Shown piece by piece: positions 5,993 to 38,695 of a DNA stretch of 64,000 bases (positions within the stretch are counted from its first letter, which is position 1; every line of letters begins with the position of its first letter). Both the position numbers and the translations under genes were made by a program. The stretch is from IMG/VR virus record IMGVR_UViG_2706795139_000001, one strand, 5' to 3'. The stretch comes from a virus. Its lineage: Duplodnaviria > Heunggongvirae > Uroviricota > Caudoviricetes > Demerecviridae. Below the pieces are notes generated by a model. It ran no database searches, had not been told where the DNA came from, and saw nothing but the letters and a program-made list of their open reading frames with translations.

Positions 5993-6232
5993 ATGGCTGT
6001 AAGAATTTTACGATATGTAGAACGTAAAGAAACCGATATTATGCAACATCATTTAACTGATGGGCAATACGCGCAATTTTTAGAAATGCAGAAAAGCGGA
6101 GCTGATACAGCAACGCTAGGAGCGTGGATCAACTCAGTTTCAACGTGTACGCATTTTGATTCATACGGGTATACGCCAGCCGAAACCGTCCAGATCTTTG
6201 ACGACTACGAGAAAGAATACATAACAGACTAA
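5993..6232 (+). CDS. hypothetical protein (79 aa)
   Basis: ORF track; RBS TAGGAGCA. Confidence 0.45.
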   Translation: MAVRILRYVERKETDIMQHHLTDGQYAQFLEMQKSGADTATLGAWINSVSTCTHFDSYGYTPAETVQIFDDYEKEYITD

Positions 6233-27640: not shown

Positions 27641-27987
27641 ATGAGTTTTTCTTGAAATTGGTAGCGGGTTCCAGTACTGCCCTGGACTTACTTAGCTTAT
27701 GAGACTAAGAAGAACTCTATGCCTCCCACCCGCAATTGTTTGGTCATTCTAGGCAGGACTCGAACCTGCTATCACTTGTGCGGACTTACGAGAACCATTC
27801 TTTCACTCGAATCGAACGAGCTTCTGCCCTCGCCAAGTTGGTTTCCCCATCAACCACGCTAGAATGTTAGATTGTTTTCAGTGCAAGAGTCCGAGTCTTG
27901 GACACGACCGCTTCGCAAGTACATAGGCAGCTTATCATGAGTCAGCACTTCCGAATTGCTAGCTCCGTGTTCTGCACTGAAATTCTG

Positions 27988-28632: not shown

Positions 28633-28734
28633 GCTTGTTTCCTCAGTTATTAATGAAAATGGTATCTGTGGCTGAATTCGATGTCAGCAATGATAGCTGG
28701 TTGGCTACCGGTTTACTTAACTCTACACAGAATT

Positions 28735-30603: not shown

Positions 30604-30692
30604 TGGCGGAAGAAGGGGGAATCGAACCCACAAGGCTATATTTCAAACCGACAGATTAGCAATCTGCTGCAATACCGTTATGCTATTCTTCC
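30604..30692 (-). tRNA. tRNA-Ser (GCT), class II
   Basis: anticodon loop TTGCTAA, 19-nt variable arm, T-loop GGGTTCGATTCC, CCA. Confidence 0.65.
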
Positions 30693-30713
30693 GAATTTAT
30701 AAGATATATTATA

Positions 30714-31283
30714 TTAGAAATTTAGCTTCATGGCAAGAAAATTTTTCAAGTTTTCGGTAGACATCTCATCCACATCTATAGGAGAAACAAACCCATTTAA
30801 TTGTCTAGCAAACTTTTCGCCAGCAGGATCATTATCCCCAACAGCTACCAATTTAAAAGGTAGTAATTTCAATTGCTTTAATAGCGGTTTTCCTGGAGAA
30901 GAACCCAACATTGCTAGAGCAGGATACCCAGCATTATGTAATGCTACAGCCTTAAATACAGATTCAGCAATTAATACTACTTTTTCATCCCCATTGAGAG
31001 TTTCTAGTCCCCATACACACTGTGTAGTAGAATAAGTAAAATATCTAGCTTCAAAGGGGCACTTACCATGACCTTTTGGAGCAGAAGGATTATAAGTCTG
31101 ATAGCCTCTCAACATTCCAGAGAAGTCATACAATGGGACTGTTAGCCATCCTTCTGGGCTTAACCAGCAGTGATATTTATCTGTATCAAACCCTCTAGAT
31201 AAGAGATGTTCTGTTAGTTCATCAATAGTCATACTAGATTCCTCTCTCAAATTTATAAATATATTATGCAGAGAATTTAGCAT
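30714..31283 (-). CDS. Toprim-domain protein (189 aa)
   Basis: GYPALAMLG..VAVGDNDPAGEKFARQL resembles DnaG-type Toprim (DxD) core. Confidence 0.45.
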   Translation of the reverse strand: MLNSLHNIFINLREESSMTIDELTEHLLSRGFDTDKYHCWLSPEGWLTVPLYDFSGMLRGYQTYNPSAPKGHGKCPFEARYFTYSTTQCVWGLETLNGDEKVVLIAESVFKAVALHNAGYPALAMLGSSPGKPLLKQLKLLPFKLVAVGDNDPAGEKFARQLNGFVSPIDVDEMSTENLKNFLAMKLNF

Positions 31284-31291
31284 TCAAGCAA
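31263..31291 (-). promoter_or_regulatory. promoter TTGCTT-17-CATAAT
   Basis: sequence pattern. Confidence 0.5.
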
Positions 31292-31452
31292 TTGAATTTT
31301 TTAACTTTTTAGAGGAAAATCACAGGATGCTTAAGGGTAGCAGGTAAGTGGGTAGACCCCAAAATTGTTATCCCCACTTGATTTTCAATGTGATATAGTG
31401 TAAAGTATTTGTCATAGCTGAGTGACCAAAGAGACACACTTATCCTCTACCT

Positions 31453-31493
31453 TAAAACAGAAAAGCCCTGCGCTCTCCAGGGAACACAGGGCT
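31453..31493 (-). terminator. terminator AGCCCTG..CAGGGCT + T-run
   Basis: hairpin after SPFH gene. Confidence 0.55.
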
Positions 31494-31517
31494 TACTTCG
31501 AATATTACGTGTGGGAA

Positions 31518-32465
31518 TTACTTGTTACGCATATCCATAATCATCTGGCCATCGTAACCAGTGCCAACTACTGTTTGAGGTACACCGCCTTGATATTTCT
31601 GAGCACGAATCATTTCAACTTCTAGTTGTTTCCAGCGAATCATCTCAGGAGTAATAGTACGTTGCAGAGCGGCGTTAGCTTCGGCTTCCTTCTTAGCTGC
31701 GTACAGTTTAGCATCTGCATCACGTTCGTTTGCAATAGCTTGGTTGTTACGAGCTTCACGATCTGCTTCTGCTTGTTTAACCTTCTGCTGTGCTTCTTGT
31801 TCAACACGAGCCAACTCAGCTTTCGCAGCATTAACTTGTTCCTCACGAACTTTGGTATTCTGTACCTGTTCCATGATTACAGGCGGCAAAGTAATATCCT
31901 GAAGGAACACTTGCTTAACTGTGTAACCATAAGGGCGTGCATACTCTTCAACTTCCTGTTGAATTGCGGTTTGTAATTGAGCCTGGATTTTAGCATCAAA
32001 CAAATCTTGTGCTTTAGGAACAGACTTACCGAACTCACGAATAGTGGACAGTAATTTTTCAGTTACATATTTGTCTAATGCTTGATCCTGGGTACCTGCG
32101 TTAATACGGTTAATCGGTGCCTTAGAACCATCAAACTGCAACATAACAGTCAGGTCAACAGTGGATTTAAACTTATCCTGACTAGGAACCTGAAGTTTAT
32201 CTAATTTTACAGCAATGTCTTTTGTACTAAAAGTATCGAAAGATGCAAATGGGTTTACAAGATGAAAACCAGGTAATACAGGATTAGGGTCTACTTTACC
32301 CAGAAATGTTTGGGTTTTAACCGTACCATCAGAAACAATAGTATATGAATTAAAAGCTAGGATTAAACCTGCTAAACCAACTACAGCACCAATACCCCAA
32401 CGTTTAATAGTGCGAATTACTTTTTGCTCAGAAGTCAGTTCTTTCATATTTTTAGTATTAAACAT
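31518..32465 (-). CDS. SPFH/band-7 (HflC/prohibitin-like) membrane protein (315 aa)
   Basis: N-terminal TM, SPFH core, long Ala/Gln/Glu-rich coiled coil. Confidence 0.7.
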   Translation of the reverse strand: MFNTKNMKELTSEQKVIRTIKRWGIGAVVGLAGLILAFNSYTIVSDGTVKTQTFLGKVDPNPVLPGFHLVNPFASFDTFSTKDIAVKLDKLQVPSQDKFKSTVDLTVMLQFDGSKAPINRINAGTQDQALDKYVTEKLLSTIREFGKSVPKAQDLFDAKIQAQLQTAIQQEVEEYARPYGYTVKQVFLQDITLPPVIMEQVQNTKVREEQVNAAKAELARVEQEAQQKVKQAEADREARNNQAIANERDADAKLYAAKKEAEANAALQRTITPEMIRWKQLEVEMIRAQKYQGGVPQTVVGTGYDGQMIMDMRNK

Positions 32466-32476
32466 ATATTTCCTTA

Positions 32477-32677
32477 TTATTTAGAAGAGTTAGCTACTAC
32501 AGTTACTTTAGTTGCAGAAATAAACAGGCTAGCATCCACAGCAAATTCAGGAGCTTTGATATCTCCATTATGAAATATGACTATACCGGAGACTACTTCA
32601 AATGCTAGTGCTGTAACATCGGTGGTATTTACTTGTGAATGTTCACCCACTACTTTTACTATATATCGTGTTTTCAC
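32477..32677 (-). CDS. hypothetical protein (66 aa)
   Basis: ORF track. Confidence 0.35.
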   Translation of the reverse strand: MKTRYIVKVVGEHSQVNTTDVTALAFEVVSGIVIFHNGDIKAPEFAVDASLFISATKVTVVANSSK

Positions 32678-32703
32678 TTTATTTTCCTAGCAGTTAATAA
32701 AAT

Positions 32704-32778
32704 TGGCCGAGGTGACAGGATTCGAACCTGCATAAAGGAATTTAGAAGACTCCTGCCTCTCCCTTAGACTACACCCCG
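32704..32778 (-). tRNA. tRNA-Arg (TCT)
   Basis: cloverleaf; anticodon loop CTTCTAA; T-loop GGTTCGAATCC; CCA. Confidence 0.7.
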
Positions 32779-33427
32779 TTTAAGTATTTTTAAGAACTCT
32801 CGTAAAAACTCTTAAAAATACAGACGATACCGGGAGAGTCATAAGTCTCACTCATTAAGTATTTCAAGACAAAATACAGTAACGTCTATTATTTTCCAGT
32901 TTAAGTCAAGGTGACTTAGTGGTTATGTCCTGCGGTATACTGAGGACTCGGTTAGGTTAGGGTCATGACTCCCCACCTTTTGCTGCTACTCAACAGGAGT
33001 TATCGCGAATTACCTGTGCTATTGTGCACCATTAGTGACATCTCTCATGTCAGCATTTCCCACTTTGTGGATAGCTTGAAAAACTACTCCGATATGGAGA
33101 AAGAACTTCACTATCCTAGAATACCTTCTAAAGTTCTTCTTTAGCCTGGACATAGTTAAATCGTAATAAAACTATTCAGCAGACTGGTTGGTTAGTCTGG
33201 AACCAACTACCGCGTGGTTTAGGCAGTGCGCAACTAACCTCGGAAGCTTTTACGTTAAAAGCACCAGTTATCCAGTTCTTACCGACCGTAGGATTCGAAC
33301 CTACATCTTCCACCAGTTACGGCTTGATAATACCGTTTATACTAGATCGGCAGTGTTACTACATAAGTGATTTCCACACCCCACTATTCATAAATTAGAG
33401 AAGAATTACTCTCTAATTTATGAATAT

Positions 33428-33456
33428 ATTATACAGAATTTATAAGCATTTAGCAA
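33428..33456 (-). promoter_or_regulatory. T5-type promoter TTGCTA-17-TATAAT heading the tRNA/small-gene cluster
   Basis: attata at 33428, tagcaa at 33451; 11-bp perfect hairpin (33391-33420) immediately downstream. Confidence 0.55.
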
Positions 33457-33464
33457 ATGAATTT

Positions 33465-33899
33465 TTAGAAAAACTCGCTAGCAATCAAGGCGGCTGTTTT
33501 ACCATCATAACGCCCTGTAAACTCTGCCTTAATAGTTTTCATTAAGAGAGCTTTGGTAATACTTGGGTTTAGCTTAACCAATTCTGCAAAGTATTTACGA
33601 ATTTCAGTTTCAGTTAACTGTTGCAGCGCATAATCATGCTCTAAACGCGCTAAAAGATCTAAGTATTCAGCATCAGGAGTATAGTCAACATTCGATTTTT
33701 CAGCGGCAATCCGTGTATTCTCAATTGCTTTGAGTTGTGATTTCAACCAGTTAGTAAACTCCAGCTCAGTTACGCAATCTTTATCAATACGTTGCAGGTC
33801 TCCTAGAACCGTACTTAGATGCTTAACTGATACAGCGTCACCACTTTTGCGAGCAGCTTCAATCAACTCTCGCAGTACATAAAGCATATTCATGCCCAT
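33465..33899 (-). CDS. hypothetical protein (144 aa)
   Basis: ORF track. Confidence 0.5.
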   Translation of the reverse strand: MGMNMLYVLRELIEAARKSGDAVSVKHLSTVLGDLQRIDKDCVTELEFTNWLKSQLKAIENTRIAAEKSNVDYTPDAEYLDLLARLEHDYALQQLTETEIRKYFAELVKLNPSITKALLMKTIKAEFTGRYDGKTAALIASEFF

Positions 33900-34069
33900 T
33901 ATTTCATCCCCAATGCTTGGTTGAAAGATTGTTCCGTCATAACTGCTGAGACTTTGGCGAAATCAAACTTTTTAGGGTTCGTAGTGATTTCAGCAACGTT
34001 GGAAGTTTTAACAGTTTTCGTAGTACGAATACCGCGAGTGTTAACACCAATGACGATCAAGTTTTTCAT
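33899..34069 (-). CDS. small protein (56 aa), missed by 60-aa cutoff
   Basis: ATG at 34069 with GAGGAAG RBS and T5-type promoter 34100-34128; stop TAA overlaps next ATG (TAATG). Confidence 0.45.
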   Translation of the reverse strand: MKNLIVIGVNTRGIRTTKTVKTSNVAEITTNPKKFDFAKVSAVMTEQSFNQALGMK

Positions 34070-34099
34070 ATTTCGCTTCCTCTCATTAATTTATGAGAG

Positions 34100-34128
34100 T
34101 ATTATACAGAAGTTTAAGTATTTAAGCA
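34100..34128 (-). promoter_or_regulatory. T5-type promoter TTGCTT-17-TATAAT
   Basis: sequence pattern. Confidence 0.55.
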
Positions 34129-34137
34129 AATAAATTT

Positions 34138-34587
34138 TTAAGTTTTAGTGACAACAGGCTTATAAAATGTATGTCCCTTAATCTTAGTTGTTTTCTTAAA
34201 CTTCTTTGTCCAGTACGGTTTATCTTTACCACTATGGAAGTATAAGGCTCCATATGTAGGATCTTGTGGTAAATCAACGTAGTATATCACTCTAGCTAAA
34301 TTCTTGGCGGTTTGCCAAGCCTTATCGGTTTTATCAACTTTTGGTCTCTTAGATACCCAAGAGAACTGGTTAGACTGATATACTACTTTACAGTAGGAAT
34401 CTGGAAATTTGCCGGAGTTTACACGGTTTTTAGTAACCTGTGCAACCGCCATCATTCCCTTTATGCCCTCACCACGACTCTCAAAATAGATATTTTTAGC
34501 AATGCAATCTATTTCTTTTGCATCGTGCGATGCCTGACTACTAAAGCTGAAGGTAAGGGCAGCTACTAAAAGCAAAGCTGCCTTCAT
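34138..34587 (-). CDS. secreted SleB/CwlJ-like cell-wall hydrolase (149 aa)
   Basis: signal peptide; YFESRGE..AVAQVTKNRVNSGKFP..VVYQSNQFSW matches Hydrolase_2 hallmarks. Confidence 0.6.
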   Translation of the reverse strand: MKAALLLVAALTFSFSSQASHDAKEIDCIAKNIYFESRGEGIKGMMAVAQVTKNRVNSGKFPDSYCKVVYQSNQFSWVSKRPKVDKTDKAWQTAKNLARVIYYVDLPQDPTYGALYFHSGKDKPYWTKKFKKTTKIKGHTFYKPVVTKT

Positions 34588-34599
34588 TCTTTTTACTCC

Positions 34600-35421
34600 T
34601 TAAAATAGATCATATTCTAATCTATTGGGATTTTCTCGGTATCCATAAGACGTAAGAGTACCCCTCATATACTCTGCGTCAACAGGATTAGATGTTACTA
34701 GAACCACTTTTAGTGGTCTTTGACCTAAAAATAGTATATGATCTAATAAGTCTTTTCCTTGTACCTCTGGATCTCCTAAATCTGAGTCCATAAATAAATA
34801 GGATCCTGTGAAACTAAATATATCTGATAGCTCCAGCGCACCTATAACTGTACGACAAATAATGGACATTTCAGGTAGATCTCTAACATCGTCTATTAGA
34901 ATATTGGTCTGCTTCCCAATTTCTGCATTACATAAACCATTTACTAGTTTTTCTCTTTCCCCTTTAGCTTGTTCGAAAGTGGTGAAGCCAGGAGATACGA
35001 AAAACTTTCCACCTAATGTAATGCTATACACAAAACCCTCGGGGAGGAGTTCTACACCTACGGTTTTATTAGTATTAATCCTATTTAACTTAAAATTTGT
35101 CTCTCTTAGATTAATAATTCTGTTATCCCACGGTATAGTATTTATATGGTCGATCATATCAGGCGGCTCTTCACCATAATGGAGCAACCACGCTATTCGG
35201 TGTCCATAAATAATTGTGGGTTTATTATCTAAGAGCAAACTAACTCTGATGTACCCATCAGAGTTCTTACTACATATTTCTCTCCCAGCATATAGGGTGT
35301 GCCAAGTTTTATTCTTGTATTTATTAGGCCTATAAAATAATTTACCGGTATAAGGATTATACTCTATAATTTCTCGAATATAATCTATATATGGTAGTAT
35401 TTGTTTTTGTAATTTACCCAT
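34600..35421 (-). CDS. HNH homing endonuclease-like (273 aa)
   Basis: IDHINTIPWDNRIINLRETNFKLNRIN; tyrosine-rich N-terminus. Confidence 0.6.
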   Translation of the reverse strand: MGKLQKQILPYIDYIREIIEYNPYTGKLFYRPNKYKNKTWHTLYAGREICSKNSDGYIRVSLLLDNKPTIIYGHRIAWLLHYGEEPPDMIDHINTIPWDNRIINLRETNFKLNRINTNKTVGVELLPEGFVYSITLGGKFFVSPGFTTFEQAKGEREKLVNGLCNAEIGKQTNILIDDVRDLPEMSIICRTVIGALELSDIFSFTGSYLFMDSDLGDPEVQGKDLLDHILFLGQRPLKVVLVTSNPVDAEYMRGTLTSYGYRENPNRLEYDLF

Positions 35422-35451
35422 AATAGCCTCGTTTCATCAATTTAAAAATAT

Positions 35452-35480
35452 ATTATACAGATAACTTAATAAATTAGCAA
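35452..35480 (-). promoter_or_regulatory. T5-type promoter TTGCTA-17-TATAAT
   Basis: sequence pattern. Confidence 0.55.
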
Positions 35481-35863
35481 ATACATTTTTAAATTGTGAA
35501 ACTAGTAAACCGATAAACAGCCTAGAGGCGCCACAGGCCATATCTTATGAGCCATGTACCTTTGATCTAGGGTTTGAATCATCAACGAATACTTTGCATC
35601 TTTTAGCTTTAGAAGTTTAGAAGTTTGAGTTCTTTAAACTTTTCAGCTTTCATACTTAAATGTTGATCTTTGAAGTTGTGTCGGTAATATCAACGACGCT
35701 TTGTTCTTACGTGTCAGCTTAAAAGGCTGGTGTAATAAACATAATCTCCAATAGATTATACTTTATAGTATGGTCAGCGGTCTTATTTAACCTCGTATTT
35801 CAACCGCTGCTGCGAGGTAAGATGCTTGGGCTTTCGTCTACCGATTTACTAGCTTTTAAATTA

Positions 35864-36502
35864 TTACTCTACTTCAATGAAGGTAGAGGCGTTAGACTCG
35901 GACAGAACAAAGTCAACATTTGTTGCAAAGTCCTGGTATTCCTCGTCATGCTGCTTAATCAGCTTCTCCAGTTCCAGCGGATCAATCAAGAATGGAGTAT
36001 TCTTGAGTTCCAGCAGGTTGAGCTGCATTTTAACTTCATCTTCGGAAGTTTTCTTATCGCGGGTAGCCATGCTATCCTGCAAACGCTCATATTTAGCATC
36101 AAACTGTGCTTTCTGCGTATTAAACTTAACTGTAGCGGCATGGAACTGCTTACGCATATTAGCCAGCAACTGAGCTTTAAGCTCCATAGAACGCTTAGCT
36201 TCAATTGCTTCTGCAACAGTCATTCTACGAGAACCGATCTCAACGATCGTTTCTGCGTTGCTCTTAATCAGGGCAGCTTTGATACGATCACGCTGGGACA
36301 TCATATCCAGCAGAGACTGGAAATCAGTCTTAATACGAGTAGACAGGTCATCTACTTCGATTGCAGCGCCAACTACAACCTGGTTTTTATCCTTACCTTC
36401 ACCAACAGCGATCAAAAGCTGTTGTTCAGTAGCTTTACGGATTTTAGCTTCCAGAGATTTGATGGTTGCCAGAGCACGAGTTTTAGAAATACGAGTGGTC
36501 AT
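35864..36502 (-). CDS. hypothetical coiled-coil protein (212 aa)
   Basis: AAGGAAG RBS; preferred over antisense ORF 35822-36520. Confidence 0.55.
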   Translation of the reverse strand: MTTRISKTRALATIKSLEAKIRKATEQQLLIAVGEGKDKNQVVVGAAIEVDDLSTRIKTDFQSLLDMMSQRDRIKAALIKSNAETIVEIGSRRMTVAEAIEAKRSMELKAQLLANMRKQFHAATVKFNTQKAQFDAKYERLQDSMATRDKKTSEDEVKMQLNLLELKNTPFLIDPLELEKLIKQHDEEYQDFATNVDFVLSESNASTFIEVE

Positions 36503-36554
36503 TGTTTCTTCCTTATATGAAGTTTAAGATTTGAATTTGTTTAAAGTTGGTCTA

Positions 36555-36737
36555 TTACAGACCAATTGCCAGCAGAGTGCGTAGAACAGTATCGTTACTG
36601 TTATCAATTTTAGGGTTAGCACGATTTAGCAGATCAAAGATTTTCTGGATACCTGATTGACGTTCAGCCATACGACGGATACCCAGATTACGAGTAGCTT
36701 TCTTACCATTTTTACGAACATTTTTAGATACTGGCAT
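36555..36737 (-). CDS. small basic protein (60 aa)
   Basis: ORF track; promoter 36778-36806. Confidence 0.4.
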   Translation of the reverse strand: MPVSKNVRKNGKKATRNLGIRRMAERQSGIQKIFDLLNRANPKIDNSNDTVLRTLLAIGL

Positions 36738-36777
36738 ATTTGTTTTCCTTTTATTGTTTTCTCAAATTTATGAATAT

Positions 36778-36806
36778 ATTATACAGAATTTTGGAGCCGG
36801 AAGCAA
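36778..36806 (-). promoter_or_regulatory. T5-type promoter TTGCTT-17-TATAAT
   Basis: sequence pattern. Confidence 0.55.
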
Positions 36807-36807
36807 A

Positions 36808-37509
36808 TCAAATTTTCATTTTTTCGATCATAGCTGCAACACAATAGCTCTCAACTAAGGCATCGAATGCTGGGTCATGTTTAACTGGGTAGATTCCATA
36901 ACGAATGGTATCCATCTTCTCCATCTTAGCTTTTGCCCAGCTAATCCCCTCTGCTTCTAGGTCTTTGTAACTATAACCAGCCTGCATCCAGAGATTGCGG
37001 AGAGATCGAACATTACCCAAATTCCAGAATTTCCACGGAACTATTTCTTCATTGGTTCCAGCATGGAAAGTGTTTGCAGAGTAGATAGTCATATCAAACT
37101 CTGGGCCGTTGCCATAATACAAAGCATTCTCTCCTAGAGCCAACTCCATAATGTTTTGAGCCATAGAGTAAGCAGCATAATTAGAGCCGAGTTTATTAGT
37201 ACAATGATGTTTACCGTTTTGGAATGCAATCAGCTTTGGATTACGATCGTTCATAGCTTCCATAATGTGGAGAGCTGATGGGCTATTTTTAGCTTGATCC
37301 ATCCAGAATGCTAGAGTAGATGCCGTAACTTTAGCTCCAGAATTAAGCTGATCTTGTACATCCAAAGTAACAAACACTAGATCAGGATCTTTATCAATTC
37401 CGTGCATAGCCACAAAAGCGAAAGAAGGCATTACGATATGAGTAGTACCACAATCTCCCGGAGTTCCTAGAGATTCAATATCTAACATACCAAATGGTTT
37501 TACTTTCAT
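36808..37509 (-). CDS. DnaQ-like (DEDD) 3'-5' exonuclease candidate (233 aa)
   Basis: N-terminal MLDIESLGT resembles Exo I motif D-x-E. Confidence 0.45.
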   Translation of the reverse strand: MKVKPFGMLDIESLGTPGDCGTTHIVMPSFAFVAMHGIDKDPDLVFVTLDVQDQLNSGAKVTASTLAFWMDQAKNSPSALHIMEAMNDRNPKLIAFQNGKHHCTNKLGSNYAAYSMAQNIMELALGENALYYGNGPEFDMTIYSANTFHAGTNEEIVPWKFWNLGNVRSLRNLWMQAGYSYKDLEAEGISWAKAKMEKMDTIRYGIYPVKHDPAFDALVESYCVAAMIEKMKI

Positions 37510-37537
37510 AACTTATCCTTTATTGTGTAGAAAACTA

Positions 37538-37774
37538 TTAAAGAGCTGTCTCTTTAATAGACTCCCACTTCTTGGGGTCTTTAAAACCAGGAAGCATATC
37601 CTCACTGACATCCCAGTTCTCTTCCATAGAGAAGTCAGGCCATTCATTCCAGCTACCTTCCAGCTCTTCATAATAGGTATTCATTACCTCATGACTAGAA
37701 AGTCGTGTATAATCTCTAGCGGATTTATGAGTGCTAGCACGGTTAAAATCATTCTTTGCTACAAAATTACGCAT
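37538..37774 (-). CDS. hypothetical acidic protein (78 aa)
   Basis: ORF track. Confidence 0.4.
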   Translation of the reverse strand: MRNFVAKNDFNRASTHKSARDYTRLSSHEVMNTYYEELEGSWNEWPDFSMEENWDVSEDMLPGFKDPKKWESIKETAL

Positions 37775-37817
37775 AGTTTCTCCAAAATATGAGGGGCTTT
37801 CGCCCCCTATTTATCTA

Positions 37818-38333
37818 TTACTTCGCTTTACGCTTGCGAGCTGGTTTAGCGGATTTACGAGCGGAATCACCCGTGAACTTAATGCCTACACCGTAACACA
37901 GAGCACGAACATTATCTTTACTATACTCTACGCCAAAGATATTTGGCTTAACAGAACCAAACTGTCCACGAGTATCACGCAATACATCTGCTGTTGGTTT
38001 ACGCTTCTGGTTAACTGCCTTCTCATAGTCTTTCATAGACATACCATTACGAGAGAACAATTCAGCCCCAGCGTTGAAGCTCAGAGAAACTGGGACAGAT
38101 TTGTGGCCATAACCCTGTACATAGGTCACAAGGCGGGCTACAGAACGAGTAGCATTCTTAGCCTTCGGCTTTTGACGAATCGTAGCCGGACGATTCAGTG
38201 CCTGTGCAGCTTGAGCATCAGTAGGATGCTTGCGCAGGTGGCGTTCCAGACGAGCTTTGCGGTTAGCCTCAGTCTGCGGGAAAGTTTTAACTGTAGTAGC
38301 TGCTTGAGTTTTTGCGTTTTTCTGCTTAGCCAT
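37818..38333 (-). CDS. basic Lys/Arg-rich protein, possible DNA-binding (171 aa)
   Basis: pI clearly high; KR-rich termini. Confidence 0.5.
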   Translation of the reverse strand: MAKQKNAKTQAATTVKTFPQTEANRKARLERHLRKHPTDAQAAQALNRPATIRQKPKAKNATRSVARLVTYVQGYGHKSVPVSLSFNAGAELFSRNGMSMKDYEKAVNQKRKPTADVLRDTRGQFGSVKPNIFGVEYSKDNVRALCYGVGIKFTGDSARKSAKPARKRKAK

Positions 38334-38371
38334 TATTTGTTTTCCTTTTTGTTTATTAATTTATGAAGTAT

Positions 38372-38400
38372 ATTATACGGTAATTTGAAGCGTTTAGCAA
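38372..38400 (-). promoter_or_regulatory. T5-type promoter TTGCTA-17-TATAAT
   Basis: sequence pattern. Confidence 0.55.
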
Positions 38401-38416
38401 CTGAATTTTTTAAAAA

Positions 38417-38695
38417 TTATCTACCAACCATCTTGGCTTGTTCTGCATCGGAAACATATTGATACGCTCCTTTATTATACGCTGGAGCAGTACACATTTT
38501 CTTACGCTCAATCTCTTCTTGAGCTTTTCTTTCGCGTTCAGCTAATTCTTCATCCAGATAAACTAAACGTTGTTCTGGAGGAGGTGGAAGACGTGTTTCT
38601 GGCTCACCAATATTAGCCTTTCTTATTTGACGAGGTGATTGTGCACGTTTTCTCAATGGTTTAAATCCTAATGAATTTGAGTTATAAATTCGCAT
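38417..38695 (-). CDS. hypothetical protein (92 aa)
   Basis: ORF track. Confidence 0.4.
   Translation of the reverse strand: MRIYNSNSLGFKPLRKRAQSPRQIRKANIGEPETRLPPPPEQRLVYLDEELAERERKAQEEIERKKMCTAPAYNKGAYQYVSDAEQAKMVGR

What the first reader, a model, noticed from the sequence alone, without database searches (positions are those of the whole stretch)
27741..27866. Oversized (126 nt) tRNA-like element with perfect 7-bp terminal acceptor pairing and two T-arm motifs
Reading the minus strand, the element begins CATTCTA and ends TAGAATG-A-CCA (perfect 7-bp acceptor, discriminator, encoded CCA). It contains a canonical T-arm GCAGGTTCGAGTCCTGC next to the 3' end, and also a second T-arm-like hairpin GCTCGTTCGATTCGAGT in the middle. 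It is 50 nt too long for any tRNA. It could be a tRNA interrupted by an insert, two fused degenerate tRNA halves, or a distinct structured RNA processed from the tRNA operon.
Basis: seen in the sequence. Interest (0 to 1): 0.6.

Follow-up and report, generated by a model that had tools for sequence, protein, structure and literature searches.

The report
T5-type rna2 tRNA-like RNA gene
This is the phage T5-family "rna2" gene: a tRNA-shaped RNA whose anticodon loop is replaced by a highly conserved 55-base module. It has been annotated in T5 and BF23 for about twenty years, its function is still unknown, and here it turns out to be shared by unrelated large phages.

Summary
On the minus strand of 27741-27866 there is a 126-nt element with a perfect terminal acceptor pairing, discriminator A, an encoded CCA and two T-arm hairpins.

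The window is Salmonella phage Shivani, a T5-like phage. The element is 97.6% identical to the misc_RNA "rna2 / RNA2, tRNA-like RNA with unknown functions" annotated in BF23, T5 and Salmonella phage 5. The gene is therefore already known, although it is unannotated in Shivani and absent from Rfam.

About 480 phage records carry it.

Compensatory changes support the acceptor, the D arm, the T arm, a 5-bp stem "P" in place of the anticodon stem, and the inner T-like hairpin. Inside P lies a near-invariant 55-nt module.

- It is not an intron, because no anticodon loop is left once it is removed.
- It is not two fused tRNA halves.
- It is not tmRNA.

Best reading: a non-decoding stable RNA carried on a tRNA scaffold and processed from the tRNA operon. 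The conserved module probably binds a conserved tRNA-handling factor, but that target is a guess.

The parts
27741..27866 (-). Whole element: the Shivani ortholog of the T5/BF23 rna2 gene (126 nt including CCA). Numbering used below: nt 1 = 27866 and nt 126 = 27741.
   Evidence: 97.6% identical to BF23 misc_RNA rna2, AJ604530 5701-5825. (T5 AY692264 misc_RNA rna2). (model hit, 157.5 bits; by construction, since the model was built from this sequence).
27859..27866 (-). Acceptor stem, 5' strand (nt 1-8, CAUUCUAG).
   Evidence: All 8 pairs show changes on both sides across 32 distinct sequences; 92.5% of cells are paired. Seen independently in the hand alignment.
27744..27752 (-). Acceptor stem, 3' strand (nt 115-122, CUAGAAUG) plus discriminator A123.
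27741..27743 (-). Encoded CCA, followed by AA as in the nine ordinary tRNA genes of the window. Not conserved in T5 or BF23.
27839..27856 (-). D arm (stem nt 11-15/24-28, loop GAUGGGGA with the conserved GG).
   Evidence: All 5 pairs have double changes; 94.6% paired. GG is conserved in 28-29 of 32 sequences.
27834..27838 (-). Stem P, 5' strand (nt 29-33). It takes the place of the anticodon stem.
   Evidence: All 5 pairs have double changes; 99.4% paired. Many different pair combinations appear in the hand alignment. The single-sequence MFE mispairs this strand with nt 79-83.
27774..27778 (-). Stem P, 3' strand (nt 89-93).
27779..27833 (-). Conserved 55-nt inner module (nt 34-88), which replaces the anticodon loop. 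It comprises J1 (GCGAGGGCAGAA, with invariant GG at nt 39-40), the T' hairpin, J2 (GAAAGA), and AUGGUU-CUCGUAA-GUCCGC-A.
   Evidence: Column conservation is: nearly all unpaired positions are invariant across T5-like phages, Acinetobacter T4-like phages and metagenomic phages. Pairing inside the module, other than T', is unresolved.
27805..27821 (-). T' hairpin (nt 46-62): a 5-bp stem with an invariant T-loop UUCGAUU.
   Evidence: 4 of 5 pairs have double changes; 97.5% paired..
27780..27798 (-). Third conserved hairpin-like segment (nt 69-87, AUGGUUCUCGUAAGUCCGC). It contains the anticodon-like heptamer C-N-Y-R-U-A-A at nt 75-81 (27786-27792).
   Evidence: G71G72/C84C85 are invariant and U70 faces R86 (helix 5). 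Only nt 76 is free in the heptamer, and it partly covaries with nt 37.
27753..27769 (-). T arm (nt 98-114, GCAGG-UUCGAGU-CCUGC).
   Evidence: 4 of 5 pairs have double changes; 97.5% paired..

Best explanation
The element is the Shivani copy of the T5-group gene rna2. It is a stable, non-decoding RNA built on a tRNA scaffold.

Shown:
- It has a complete tRNA-like shell: an acceptor of 7-8 bp, a D arm with GG, a T arm, and here a discriminator plus CCA.
- A 5-bp stem P sits where the anticodon stem would be.
- P encloses a 55-nt module, almost invariant in sequence, which contains a second true T-loop hairpin and the conserved stretch AAUGGUUC-N-YRUAA-N-UCC.
- It lies in the minus-strand tRNA cluster.

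Inferred:
- It is co-transcribed with the neighbouring tRNAs and small ORFs. This rests only on the absence of a convincing promoter or terminator next to it.
- It is cut at its 5' end by RNase P and trimmed at its 3' end like a tRNA. CCA is encoded here; in T5 and BF23 it would have to be added.
- It accumulates as a species of about 123-126 nt.
- The shell provides processing and stability, and the inner module is the working part.

The RNA cannot decode, for two reasons. Its anticodon-like heptamer has a free 'position 33' and sits at the end of, or is paired into, an extra domain. The Acinetobacter-phage versions have no acceptor stem at all.

My best guess for its action, with low confidence, is that the module presents tRNA-like surfaces: a second elbow and a loop with the C32/U36-A37-A38 signature. 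These would bind or titrate a conserved host tRNA-handling factor during infection. The target is unknown.
For: Identity:
- The window is 100% identical to Salmonella phage Shivani.
- The element is 97.6% identical to BF23 'rna2, tRNA-like RNA with unknown functions'.
- It is also annotated in T5 AY692264 and Salmonella phage 5 AJ604531.

Conservation:
- 481 phage records match, 418 of them over at least 80% of the length.
- Distant members were found by pattern scans and a covariance model. They are Pectobacterium My1, Klebsiella Sugarland and phiKp_27, Serratia Kamaji, Acinetobacter ZZ1 and Acj9, a 159,801-bp contig I take to be phage 133 by its length, 164-247 kb contigs, and a 1.46-Mb contig.
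- Members score 42-157 bits and ordinary tRNAs at most 27 bits.

Structure:
- 93.7% of cells are paired, and 26 of 32 pairs show double changes.
- The covariation score is 0.654, against 0.185 when shuffled and at most 0.115 when slid.
- RNAalifold predicts the same helices. The hand-anchored alignment shows the same compensations.

Context:
- Almost all members lie inside tRNA arrays.
- All nine ordinary tRNAs of the window, and this element, end in CCA-AA.
- There is no promoter or terminator beyond chance next to it.

Not decoding:
- nt 76 takes U, C, A or G.
- The Acinetobacter-phage copies show no convincing acceptor pairing on inspection. In the contig taken to be phage 133 the element is packed directly between tRNA-Gly and tRNA-Cys.

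No linked protein: no ORF is shared by all lineages within 4 kb. This favours a host target or an RNA-only role.
Against: - I found no expression or processing data for rna2. The GenBank notes call it 'tRNA-like', whereas RNAI, RNAIII and RNAIV are called 'stable RNA'. Literature searches found nothing specific.
- The MFE z-score is only -1.53.
- A viable T5 strain (T5Mos, deletion 30661-38625) should lack the gene by coordinates. rna2 lies at about 32,882-33,007 in AY587007. It is therefore dispensable in laboratory hosts.
- The fold of the inner module beyond the T' hairpin is unresolved. Three exclusive helices are each 71-99% paired with little covariation.
- The partial 37-76 covariation suggests the anticodon-like loop is paired rather than displayed. 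This weakens the mimicry idea.
- The covariation alignment was fitted to the model.
Confidence: 0.72

Rival explanations
1. Decoy or sponge (a specific version of the function). The inner module mimics the anticodon arm and elbow of ANN-decoding tRNAs (Thr, Met, Ile type). It would soak up a host tRNA-targeting factor. Candidates are an anticodon nuclease or another tRNA-directed defence effector, or an enzyme such as the t6A synthase. This would protect or tune the tRNA pool during infection.
For: - The heptamer C-N-Y-R-U-A-A keeps exactly C32, U36, A37 and A38, with triplets CGU, UGU, CAU and UAU.
- 36-UAA-38 plus position 32 are the reported t6A determinants, while positions 34 and 35 are neutral.
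- T5 tRNAs are already known to counter a tRNA-cleaving defence, PARIS.
- The element is conserved in nature yet apparently dispensable in the laboratory, which is typical of counter-defence genes.
Against: - E. coli TsaBCDE rejects C33, and D-stem contacts are needed.
- Many members have A, G or C at that position.
- nt 76 partly covaries with nt 37, so the loop may be paired.
- No known nuclease is reported to target these loops.
- No experiment exists.
Confidence: 0.2
2. Processing punctuation only. The tRNA-like shape exists to recruit RNase P and 3' processing enzymes, which separate and stabilise neighbouring tRNAs and small mRNAs of the polycistronic early transcript. The released RNA itself would have no function.
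For: It lies between an ORF and a tRNA-like gene with no promoter or terminator of its own. In the contig taken to be phage 133, and in Acj9, it abuts tRNAs directly.
Against: Punctuation needs only the shell. It does not explain a 55-nt module whose unpaired nucleotides are nearly invariant across T5-like phages, T4-like phages and jumbo-phage contigs. The Acinetobacter versions keep the module but lose the acceptor stem that RNase P would use.
Confidence: 0.12
3. An intron-containing tRNA gene. The insert would be removed to give a functional decoding tRNA.
For: The outer cloverleaf is complete. ARAGORN with -i and -ps90 reports 'tRNA-Arg(CCG)' with a 48-nt intron.
Against: - ARAGORN finds nothing at its default threshold.
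- The proposed loop GUCCGCA has C at position 37. In relatives the same residues become CCA with U37, which would change the amino-acid identity.
- 48-55 nt is too short for the group I introns known in bacterial tRNA genes (from my own knowledge).
- Rfam finds no intron or ribozyme at E<=10.
- The insert, not the exons, is the most conserved part.
Confidence: 0.03
4. A decayed relic: two fused or partly duplicated tRNA halves, or a tRNA pseudogene without function.
For: There are two T arms. In T5-likes an internal AGAAUG (nt 66-71) repeats the 3' acceptor strand. ARAGORN at -ps80 draws two overlapping weak half-tRNAs.
Against: - Compensatory changes maintain every outer helix and T'.
- The internal AGAAUG does not track the acceptor sequence. 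My1 has the same acceptor and no AGAAUG. L048 has another acceptor and the same motif.
- The element is retained in about 480 genomes and in unrelated phage families.
Confidence: 0.04
5. The region is protein-coding: the 47-aa ORF on the plus strand (27719-27862), which several GenBank records annotate as a hypothetical protein.
For: The ORF exists. 'Hypothetical protein' is annotated over the homologous place in several records.
Against: The substitution pattern is that of paired RNA helices with both sides changing. The acceptor, D and P sequences are completely different in Sugarland, L048 and others, while the unpaired nucleotides are invariant. That is the opposite of codon-wise conservation.
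Confidence: 0.02

Closest known systems
rna2 / RNA2 of phages T5, BF23 and Salmonella phage 5 (GenBank AY692264, AJ604530, AJ604531; misc_RNA, 'tRNA-like RNA with unknown functions')
   Same: It is the same gene: 97.6% identity over 124 nt, the same strand, and the same place downstream of tRNA-Asp and ORF trn2.10.
   Different: The Shivani copy encodes CCA, whereas T5 and BF23 do not. It is followed by a different tRNA-like gene instead of tRNA-Gly (BF23) or RNAIV (T5). It is unannotated in the Shivani record.
Phage T4 species 1 and species 2 RNAs (rnaC, rnaD)
   Same: These are small stable RNAs of unknown function encoded at the end of a phage tRNA cluster. rnaC also ends in a T-arm-like hairpin.
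   Different: The rna2 covariance model does not hit them; in the T4 locus only tRNAs score, at no more than 18 bits. They have no P stem with the 55-nt module. The Acinetobacter T4-like phages carry the rna2-type module instead.
tRNA-like domain of tmRNA
   Same: The topology is shared: an acceptor and T arm, with a helix in place of the anticodon stem leading to an extra domain (from my own knowledge of tmRNA).
   Different: ARAGORN finds no tmRNA and Rfam gives no hit. The extra domain is only 55 nt. There is no conserved reading frame or pseudoknot series and no G3-U70. Some members lack the acceptor.
Bacterial Y RNA (YrlA) tRNA-like module, and viral 3' tRNA-like structures
   Same: These are non-decoding RNAs that imitate the tRNA elbow (T loop plus D-loop GG) to engage tRNA-handling proteins. 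Background comes from the review read; the YrlA paper was only listed and not read.
   Different: The topology differs. In YrlA the termini are in the Ro-binding stem and the acceptor is capped (from my own knowledge). There is no Rfam match. Here the shell is a full cloverleaf with free 5' and 3' ends.
Engineered 'tRNA scaffold' RNAs (a payload inserted in place of the anticodon loop)
   Same: The design is the same: an intact acceptor, D and T shell with the payload closed by the anticodon stem. This gives tRNA-like processing and stability (from my own knowledge).
   Different: This one is natural and conserved in phages, and the target of its payload is unknown.

Membership tests
T5-group rna2 (annotated misc_RNA) | Sequence homology to the annotated rna2 of BF23 and T5 | tested here: met
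   97.6% identity over 124 of 126 nt to AJ604530 rna2. T5 AY692264 rna2 covers the homologous place.
T5-group rna2 (annotated misc_RNA) | Same genomic position and strand within the tRNA gene region | tested here: met
   It lies downstream of tRNA-Asp and the ORF trn2.10 homolog (Shivani gp169) and upstream of the next tRNA-type gene.
T5-group rna2 (annotated misc_RNA) | Expressed as a discrete RNA in infected cells | not testable with these tools
   No expression data were found.
Canonical tRNA (Rfam RF00005) | Acceptor stem, D arm with GG, and T arm with a T-loop | tested here: met
   Ordinary tRNAs score 12-27 bits against the rna2 model by matching this shell.
Canonical tRNA (Rfam RF00005) | 5-bp anticodon stem closing a 7-nt loop with U33 and an anticodon; total length about 70-95 nt | tested here: not met
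   Stem P closes 55 nt and the element is 126 nt long. The only heptamer that looks like an anticodon loop has a free position 33.
Canonical tRNA (Rfam RF00005) | Reaches the detection thresholds of tRNA finders | tested here: not met
   ARAGORN at default, Rfam at gathering threshold and Rfam at E<=10 all find nothing.
Intron-containing tRNA | Removing the insert leaves a canonical anticodon loop whose identity is conserved among relatives | tested here: not met
   ARAGORN -i finds nothing at default. At -ps90 it gives Arg-CCG with C37. Relatives read CCA with U37 at the same residues.
Intron-containing tRNA | The insert belongs to a known self-splicing or enzyme-spliced intron class | tested here: not met
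   There is no Rfam intron or ribozyme match at E<=10. The insert is 48-55 nt.
tmRNA | tRNA-like domain plus a tag reading frame and pseudoknots | tested here: not met
   ARAGORN -m finds nothing and Rfam finds nothing.
T4 rnaC / rnaD | Detectable homology in sequence and structure | tested here: not met
   Model R1 does not hit rnaC or rnaD in the T4 locus L128 at E<=1. Only a short shared word, GGUUGAGAUA, is seen by eye, with Sugarland-type members.
t6A-substrate anticodon loop (ANN-decoding tRNAs) | 36-UAA-38 with C or U at position 32 | tested here: met
   C75, U79, A80 and A81 are invariant in 32 distinct sequences.
t6A-substrate anticodon loop (ANN-decoding tRNAs) | U33 (C33 is an anti-determinant for E. 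coli TsaBCDE), and the loop presented on an anticodon stem stacked under the D stem | tested here: not met
   nt 76 is U in 22, A in 6, C in 2 and G in 2 sequences. The supporting stem is only G71G72/C84C85 plus a wobble pair, and it lies beyond stem P.
Interdigitated double T-loop (elbow-docking motif of RNase P, T-box and the L1 stalk) | Two pentanucleotide T-loops that intercalate head to tail | not testable with these tools
   One true T-loop (T') is present in the module. A second (UGAAA at nt 62-66, or the UUC... loop at 73-83) is only conjecture. A 3D structure is needed (background).

The most novel reading that the evidence does not exclude
rna2 may be the founding member of a widespread, undescribed family of phage RNAs. 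The family is absent from Rfam and is present in Demerecviridae, Acinetobacter Straboviridae, jumbo-phage contigs and a 47-tRNA array.

In this family a tRNA shell delivers an invariant 55-nt module that carries a second tRNA elbow. In the most novel reading the module acts in trans on the tRNA machinery. It could be a decoy for tRNA-targeting immune effectors, or a binder of a tRNA-processing or tRNA-modifying factor. That would be an RNA-based counter-defence or a takeover device.
Probability: 0.2. Interest if true: 0.8.

Novelty: already known. Interest (0 to 1): 0.42.

Why it matters
T5 and T4 have carried small tRNA-cluster RNAs of unknown function in their annotations for decades. Phage tRNA clusters are now understood partly as counter-measures to tRNA-cleaving defences.

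This work adds three things:
- rna2 has a structure proven by covariation.
- Its working part is a 55-nt module that is almost invariant across unrelated large phages of different hosts.
- The acceptor end is dispensable in some lineages.

Together these turn an old 'unknown function' annotation into a defined and testable object, with precise mutations to make and a module to use as bait. If the module proves to bind a host tRNA-handling or immune factor, it would be a new class of RNA effector. If not, it remains a well-defined orphan RNA family that should be added to Rfam, so that it stops being annotated as a hypothetical protein.

Tried and rejected
- ARAGORN at default and Rfam at gathering threshold and at E<=10 gave no call.
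- The single-sequence MFE pairs nt 29-33 with 79-83. Covariation shows the real partner is 89-93, so that pairing is rejected.
- The first 14-mer scan of IMG/VR gave almost only chance hits. A longer gapped pattern was needed.
- The idea that the internal AGAAUG gives an alternative acceptor pairing is a T5-lineage coincidence.
- I looked for a J1 GCG / 85-87 CGC extension of stem P by eye. It is not conserved.
- I searched for a protein gene co-inherited with the RNA. None is shared across lineages; only synteny within a group is seen.
- Homology to T4 rnaC/rnaD and to BF23 RNA1 was not detected by the model.
- tmRNA was not found.
- BLAST with the AT-rich member L251 found nothing in GenBank phages.
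- A resemblance of 'AAAGAA...CGUAA' to the 23S rRNA L11-binding region occurred to me from memory. I did not pursue it because I had no means to test it.
- Literature searches for expression or function of rna2 found nothing specific.

Full report
**What is there**

Read on the minus strand, window 27866 to 27741 is:

CAUUCUAGCGUGGUUGAUGGGGAAACCAACUUGGCGAGGGCAGAAGCUCGUUCGAUUCGAGUGAAAGAAUGGUUCUCGUAAGUCCGCACAAGUGAUAGCAGGUUCGAGUCCUGCCUAGAAUGACCA.

G8-C115 extends the terminal pairing to 8 bp.
- A scan for such T-arm hairpins finds nine in the 64-kb window. All lie on the minus strand of the tRNA region. Seven belong to ARAGORN-called tRNAs (six ordinary ones plus the odd 'Ser(act)' call) and two to this element. 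Shuffled sequence gives a mean of 0.3.
- ARAGORN and Rfam do not call the element.
- Its MFE is unremarkable, with z = -1.53.

**Where it comes from and whether it is known**

- The window is 100% identical to Salmonella phage Shivani (Tequintavirus, T5-like). Shivani's record annotates nothing at this place.
- The element is 97.6% identical to a feature of the BF23 tRNA-region record AJ604530: misc_RNA rna2, 'RNA2, tRNA-like RNA with unknown functions', 125 nt.
- The same feature is annotated in T5 AY692264 and in Salmonella phage 5 AJ604531.
- BF23 also lists the tRNA-like RNA1 and RNA3 and the stable RNAs I, III, IV and 2H. Of these, only RNA2 and RNA3 have counterparts in this window.
- The finding is therefore a rediscovery of an annotated gene of unknown function.

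**How widely it is conserved**

- BLAST finds it in 481 phage records. Most are T5-like phages of Salmonella, Escherichia and Klebsiella.
- Weaker matches led outside the genus, to Pectobacterium My1, Klebsiella Sugarland and phiKp_27, and the T4-like Acinetobacter phage ZZ1.
- Pattern scans built on the conserved core recovered further members in IMG/VR, JGI metagenomes and GTDB genomes.
- A covariance model built from seven T5-like copies separates members (42-157 bits) from ordinary tRNAs (at most 27 bits). The tRNAs match only the outer shell.
- Members include:
  - Serratia phage Kamaji;
  - Acinetobacter phages Acj9 (confirmed) and ZZ1, and a 159,801-bp contig that I take to be phage 133 by its length;
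  - contigs of 164, 167 and 247 kb;
  - a 1.46-Mb metagenome contig where the element sits inside an array of 47 tRNA genes in 8.3 kb.
- Almost every member lies within or next to a tRNA cluster.

**Structure that is proven**

I used a hand-anchored alignment of 26 members and the model-fitted alignment of 32 distinct sequences. Five helices keep pairing through changes on both sides:

| Helix | Pairs with double changes |
|---|---|
| Acceptor | 8 of 8 |
| D stem | 5 of 5 |
| Stem P (nt 29-33 with 89-93) | 5 of 5 |
| Inner T' hairpin (nt 46-50 with 58-62) | 4 of 5 |
| T stem | 4 of 5 |

- Overall 93.7% of cells pair.
- The covariation score is 0.654, against 0.185 for shuffles and at most 0.115 for slid partners.
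- RNAalifold predicts the same helices.
- Examples for stem P are ACUUG/CAAGU, GCUGU/GCAGU, CCCAU/AUGGG, UCACU/AGUGA and CCGCA/UGCGG.
- The single-sequence MFE mispairs nt 29-33 with 79-83.
- The molecule is thus a complete cloverleaf in which stem P occupies the place of the anticodon stem and closes 55 nt instead of a 7-nt loop.

**The inner module**

- The unpaired nucleotides of nt 34-88 are almost invariant from T5 to the Acinetobacter phages and the metagenomic contigs. They are G39 G40, G43, A45, the T' loop UUCRAUU, G63-A-A-A-G-A-A-U-G-G-U-U-C75, Y77 R78 U79 A80 A81, U83 C84 C85 and A88.
- How this module folds beyond T' is not settled. Three mutually exclusive helices are each possible:
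  - **A**, nt 70-72 with 84-86: 99% paired, but invariant;
  - **B**, nt 36-41 with 82-87: 71% paired, and pair 41-82 is C-G 15 times, U-A 9 times, U·U 7 times and C·A once;
  - **C**, nt 35-41 with 72-78: 84% paired, pair 37-76 is A-U 21 times and U-A 3 times, and pair 41-72 is C-G or U·G in all sequences.
- On Shivani's sequence the proven core alone is worth -27.7 kcal/mol. Model A gives -28.1, model B gives -33.5, and the core-constrained optimum (which includes helix C) gives -37.2.

**The anticodon-like heptamer**

- Nucleotides 75-81 read C-N-Y-R-U-A-A. In T5-likes this is CUCGUAA; elsewhere the triplets are CGU, UGU, CAU or UAU.
- The invariant positions (32, 36, 37, 38) coincide with the reported determinants of t6A37 formation in ANN-decoding tRNAs.
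- 'Position 33' is U, A, C or G and partly covaries with nt 37.
- C33 is an anti-determinant for the E. coli enzyme.
- The loop therefore cannot be a working anticodon loop, and it may not even be exposed.

**What it is not**

- *Not an intron-containing tRNA.* ARAGORN with introns finds nothing at its default threshold. At a relaxed threshold it reports 'Arg-CCG' with C37. The same residues read CCA/U37 in relatives. No Rfam intron or ribozyme matches.
- *Not two fused halves.* The internal AGAAUG that repeats the 3' acceptor strand is missing in My1, which has the same acceptor. It is kept in L048, which has another acceptor.
- *Not tmRNA*.
- *Not detectably related to T4 rnaC/rnaD*.
- *Not coding.* Several records place a 'hypothetical protein' over it, and a 47-aa plus-strand ORF exists. 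The substitution pattern, however, is that of RNA helices.

**Clues to function**

- All nine ordinary tRNA genes of the window, and this element, end in CCA followed by AA. No promoter or terminator beyond chance flanks it. Maturation by the tRNA pathway is the natural inference, but the CCA is absent in T5 and BF23.
- The Acinetobacter T4-like phages keep the D-loop-like GG segment, P, the module and the T arm. On inspection they show no convincing acceptor pairing.
- In the contig taken to be phage 133, about 104 nt are wedged directly between the CCA of tRNA-Gly and the first base of tRNA-Cys. Aminoacylation therefore cannot be the family-wide function. The constant parts are the two T-loop 'elbows' and the module.
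- No protein gene travels with the RNA across lineages. This points to a host partner or an RNA-only role.
- A viable T5 strain with deletion 30661-38625 should lack rna2 by coordinates (about 32,882-33,007 in AY587007). The gene would then be dispensable in laboratory hosts. Its retention in hundreds of natural isolates suggests a conditional benefit. The same tRNA region is known to supply a tRNA that neutralises the PARIS defence.

**Verdict**

- The gene is already known as rna2, so novelty for this locus is low.
- The following appear undescribed in the sources I could search:
  - the covariation-backed structure;
  - the recognition that the anticodon loop is replaced by an invariant 55-nt module with a second T-loop;
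  - the spread of the family to unrelated large phages;
  - the loss of the acceptor in some lineages.
- The mechanism I commit to is a tRNA-scaffolded, non-decoding stable RNA whose module engages a conserved tRNA-handling factor. Identity and architecture are well supported. Processing is inferred. The target is a guess.

Noticed in passing
window 27659-27733 (-): A second non-canonical tRNA-like gene lies directly downstream of rna2: GCGGGUG...ACCCGC-U-ACCA, with a perfect CUCAUAA anticodon loop (CAU) but a non-T-loop 'T arm' (CCAG-GGCAGUA-CUGG). ARAGORN at default and Rfam miss it; ARAGORN at -ps80 calls tRNA-Met(cat) there. BF23 has tRNA-Gly at this place and T5 has RNAIV.
   Followed up: partly
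window 28660-28732 (-): This is the homolog of BF23 'RNA3, tRNA-like RNA with unknown functions' (98.6% identity), abutting tRNA-Asn. It is also missed by ARAGORN and Rfam, and no RNA feature is listed there in the Shivani table.
   Followed up: no
window 33279-33352 (-): ARAGORN calls 'tRNA-Ser(act)' with the anticodon at position 36. It has the lowest Rfam tRNA score in the window (36.8 bits) and is the only tRNA call without an encoded CCA, ending ...GGTCGGTAAG. It may be another tRNA-like RNA rather than a decoder.
   Followed up: no
window 27796-27801 (-) (nt 66-71) versus 27745-27750: In T5-likes the module contains AGAAUG, a copy of the 3' acceptor strand that could pair with nt 1-6. 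It does not track the acceptor in other lineages, so it is probably a coincidence. An alternative fold specific to T5-likes is not excluded.
   Followed up: yes
window 27826/27785 (nt 41/82) and 27830/27791 (nt 37/76): Two long-range covariations occur inside the module that no single nested model explains. Pair 41-82 is C-G, U-A or U·U and never U-G. Pair 37-76 is A-U or U-A, with purine-purine in the 'CCAUA' subclass. This may reflect a pseudoknot, a base triple or a conformational switch.
   Followed up: partly
L248 1-8283 (metagenome contig Ga0308158_10000004, 1.46 Mb): There are 47 tRNA genes in 8.3 kb, with an rna2-type element at 6022-6139 between tRNA-Gly and tRNA-Pro. It is unclear whether this contig is cellular or viral.
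   Followed up: no
L140 5451-5523, L207 6751-6823, L267 7053-7127, L251 205-276: ARAGORN calls 'tRNA-Pyl(cta)', meaning amber-suppressor-type tRNAs, in the tRNA clusters that carry rna2-type elements. These are Acinetobacter T4-like phage loci (L140 = Acj9, L207, L267) and an AT-rich contig (L251). In L267 the suppressor abuts the element.
   Followed up: no
L002 5446-5589 (BF23 RNA1), L128 2909-3047 (T4 rnaC), L125 about 620-635 (Sugarland): BF23 RNA1, T4 rnaC and the Sugarland/My1-type rna2 share the word GGUUGAGAUA (GGUUGAGGUA in My1) just before a hairpin. The rna2 model does not detect RNA1 or rnaC. A deeper relationship among phage tRNA-cluster RNAs is possible but untested.
   Followed up: partly
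window 27719-27862 (+), and homologous places in other records: Several GenBank phage records (for example NBSal003, Tennessee, WP85 and Acj9) annotate a 'hypothetical protein' across the rna2 locus. A 47-aa plus-strand ORF exists here. This is probably a propagated mis-annotation of an RNA gene.
   Followed up: partly
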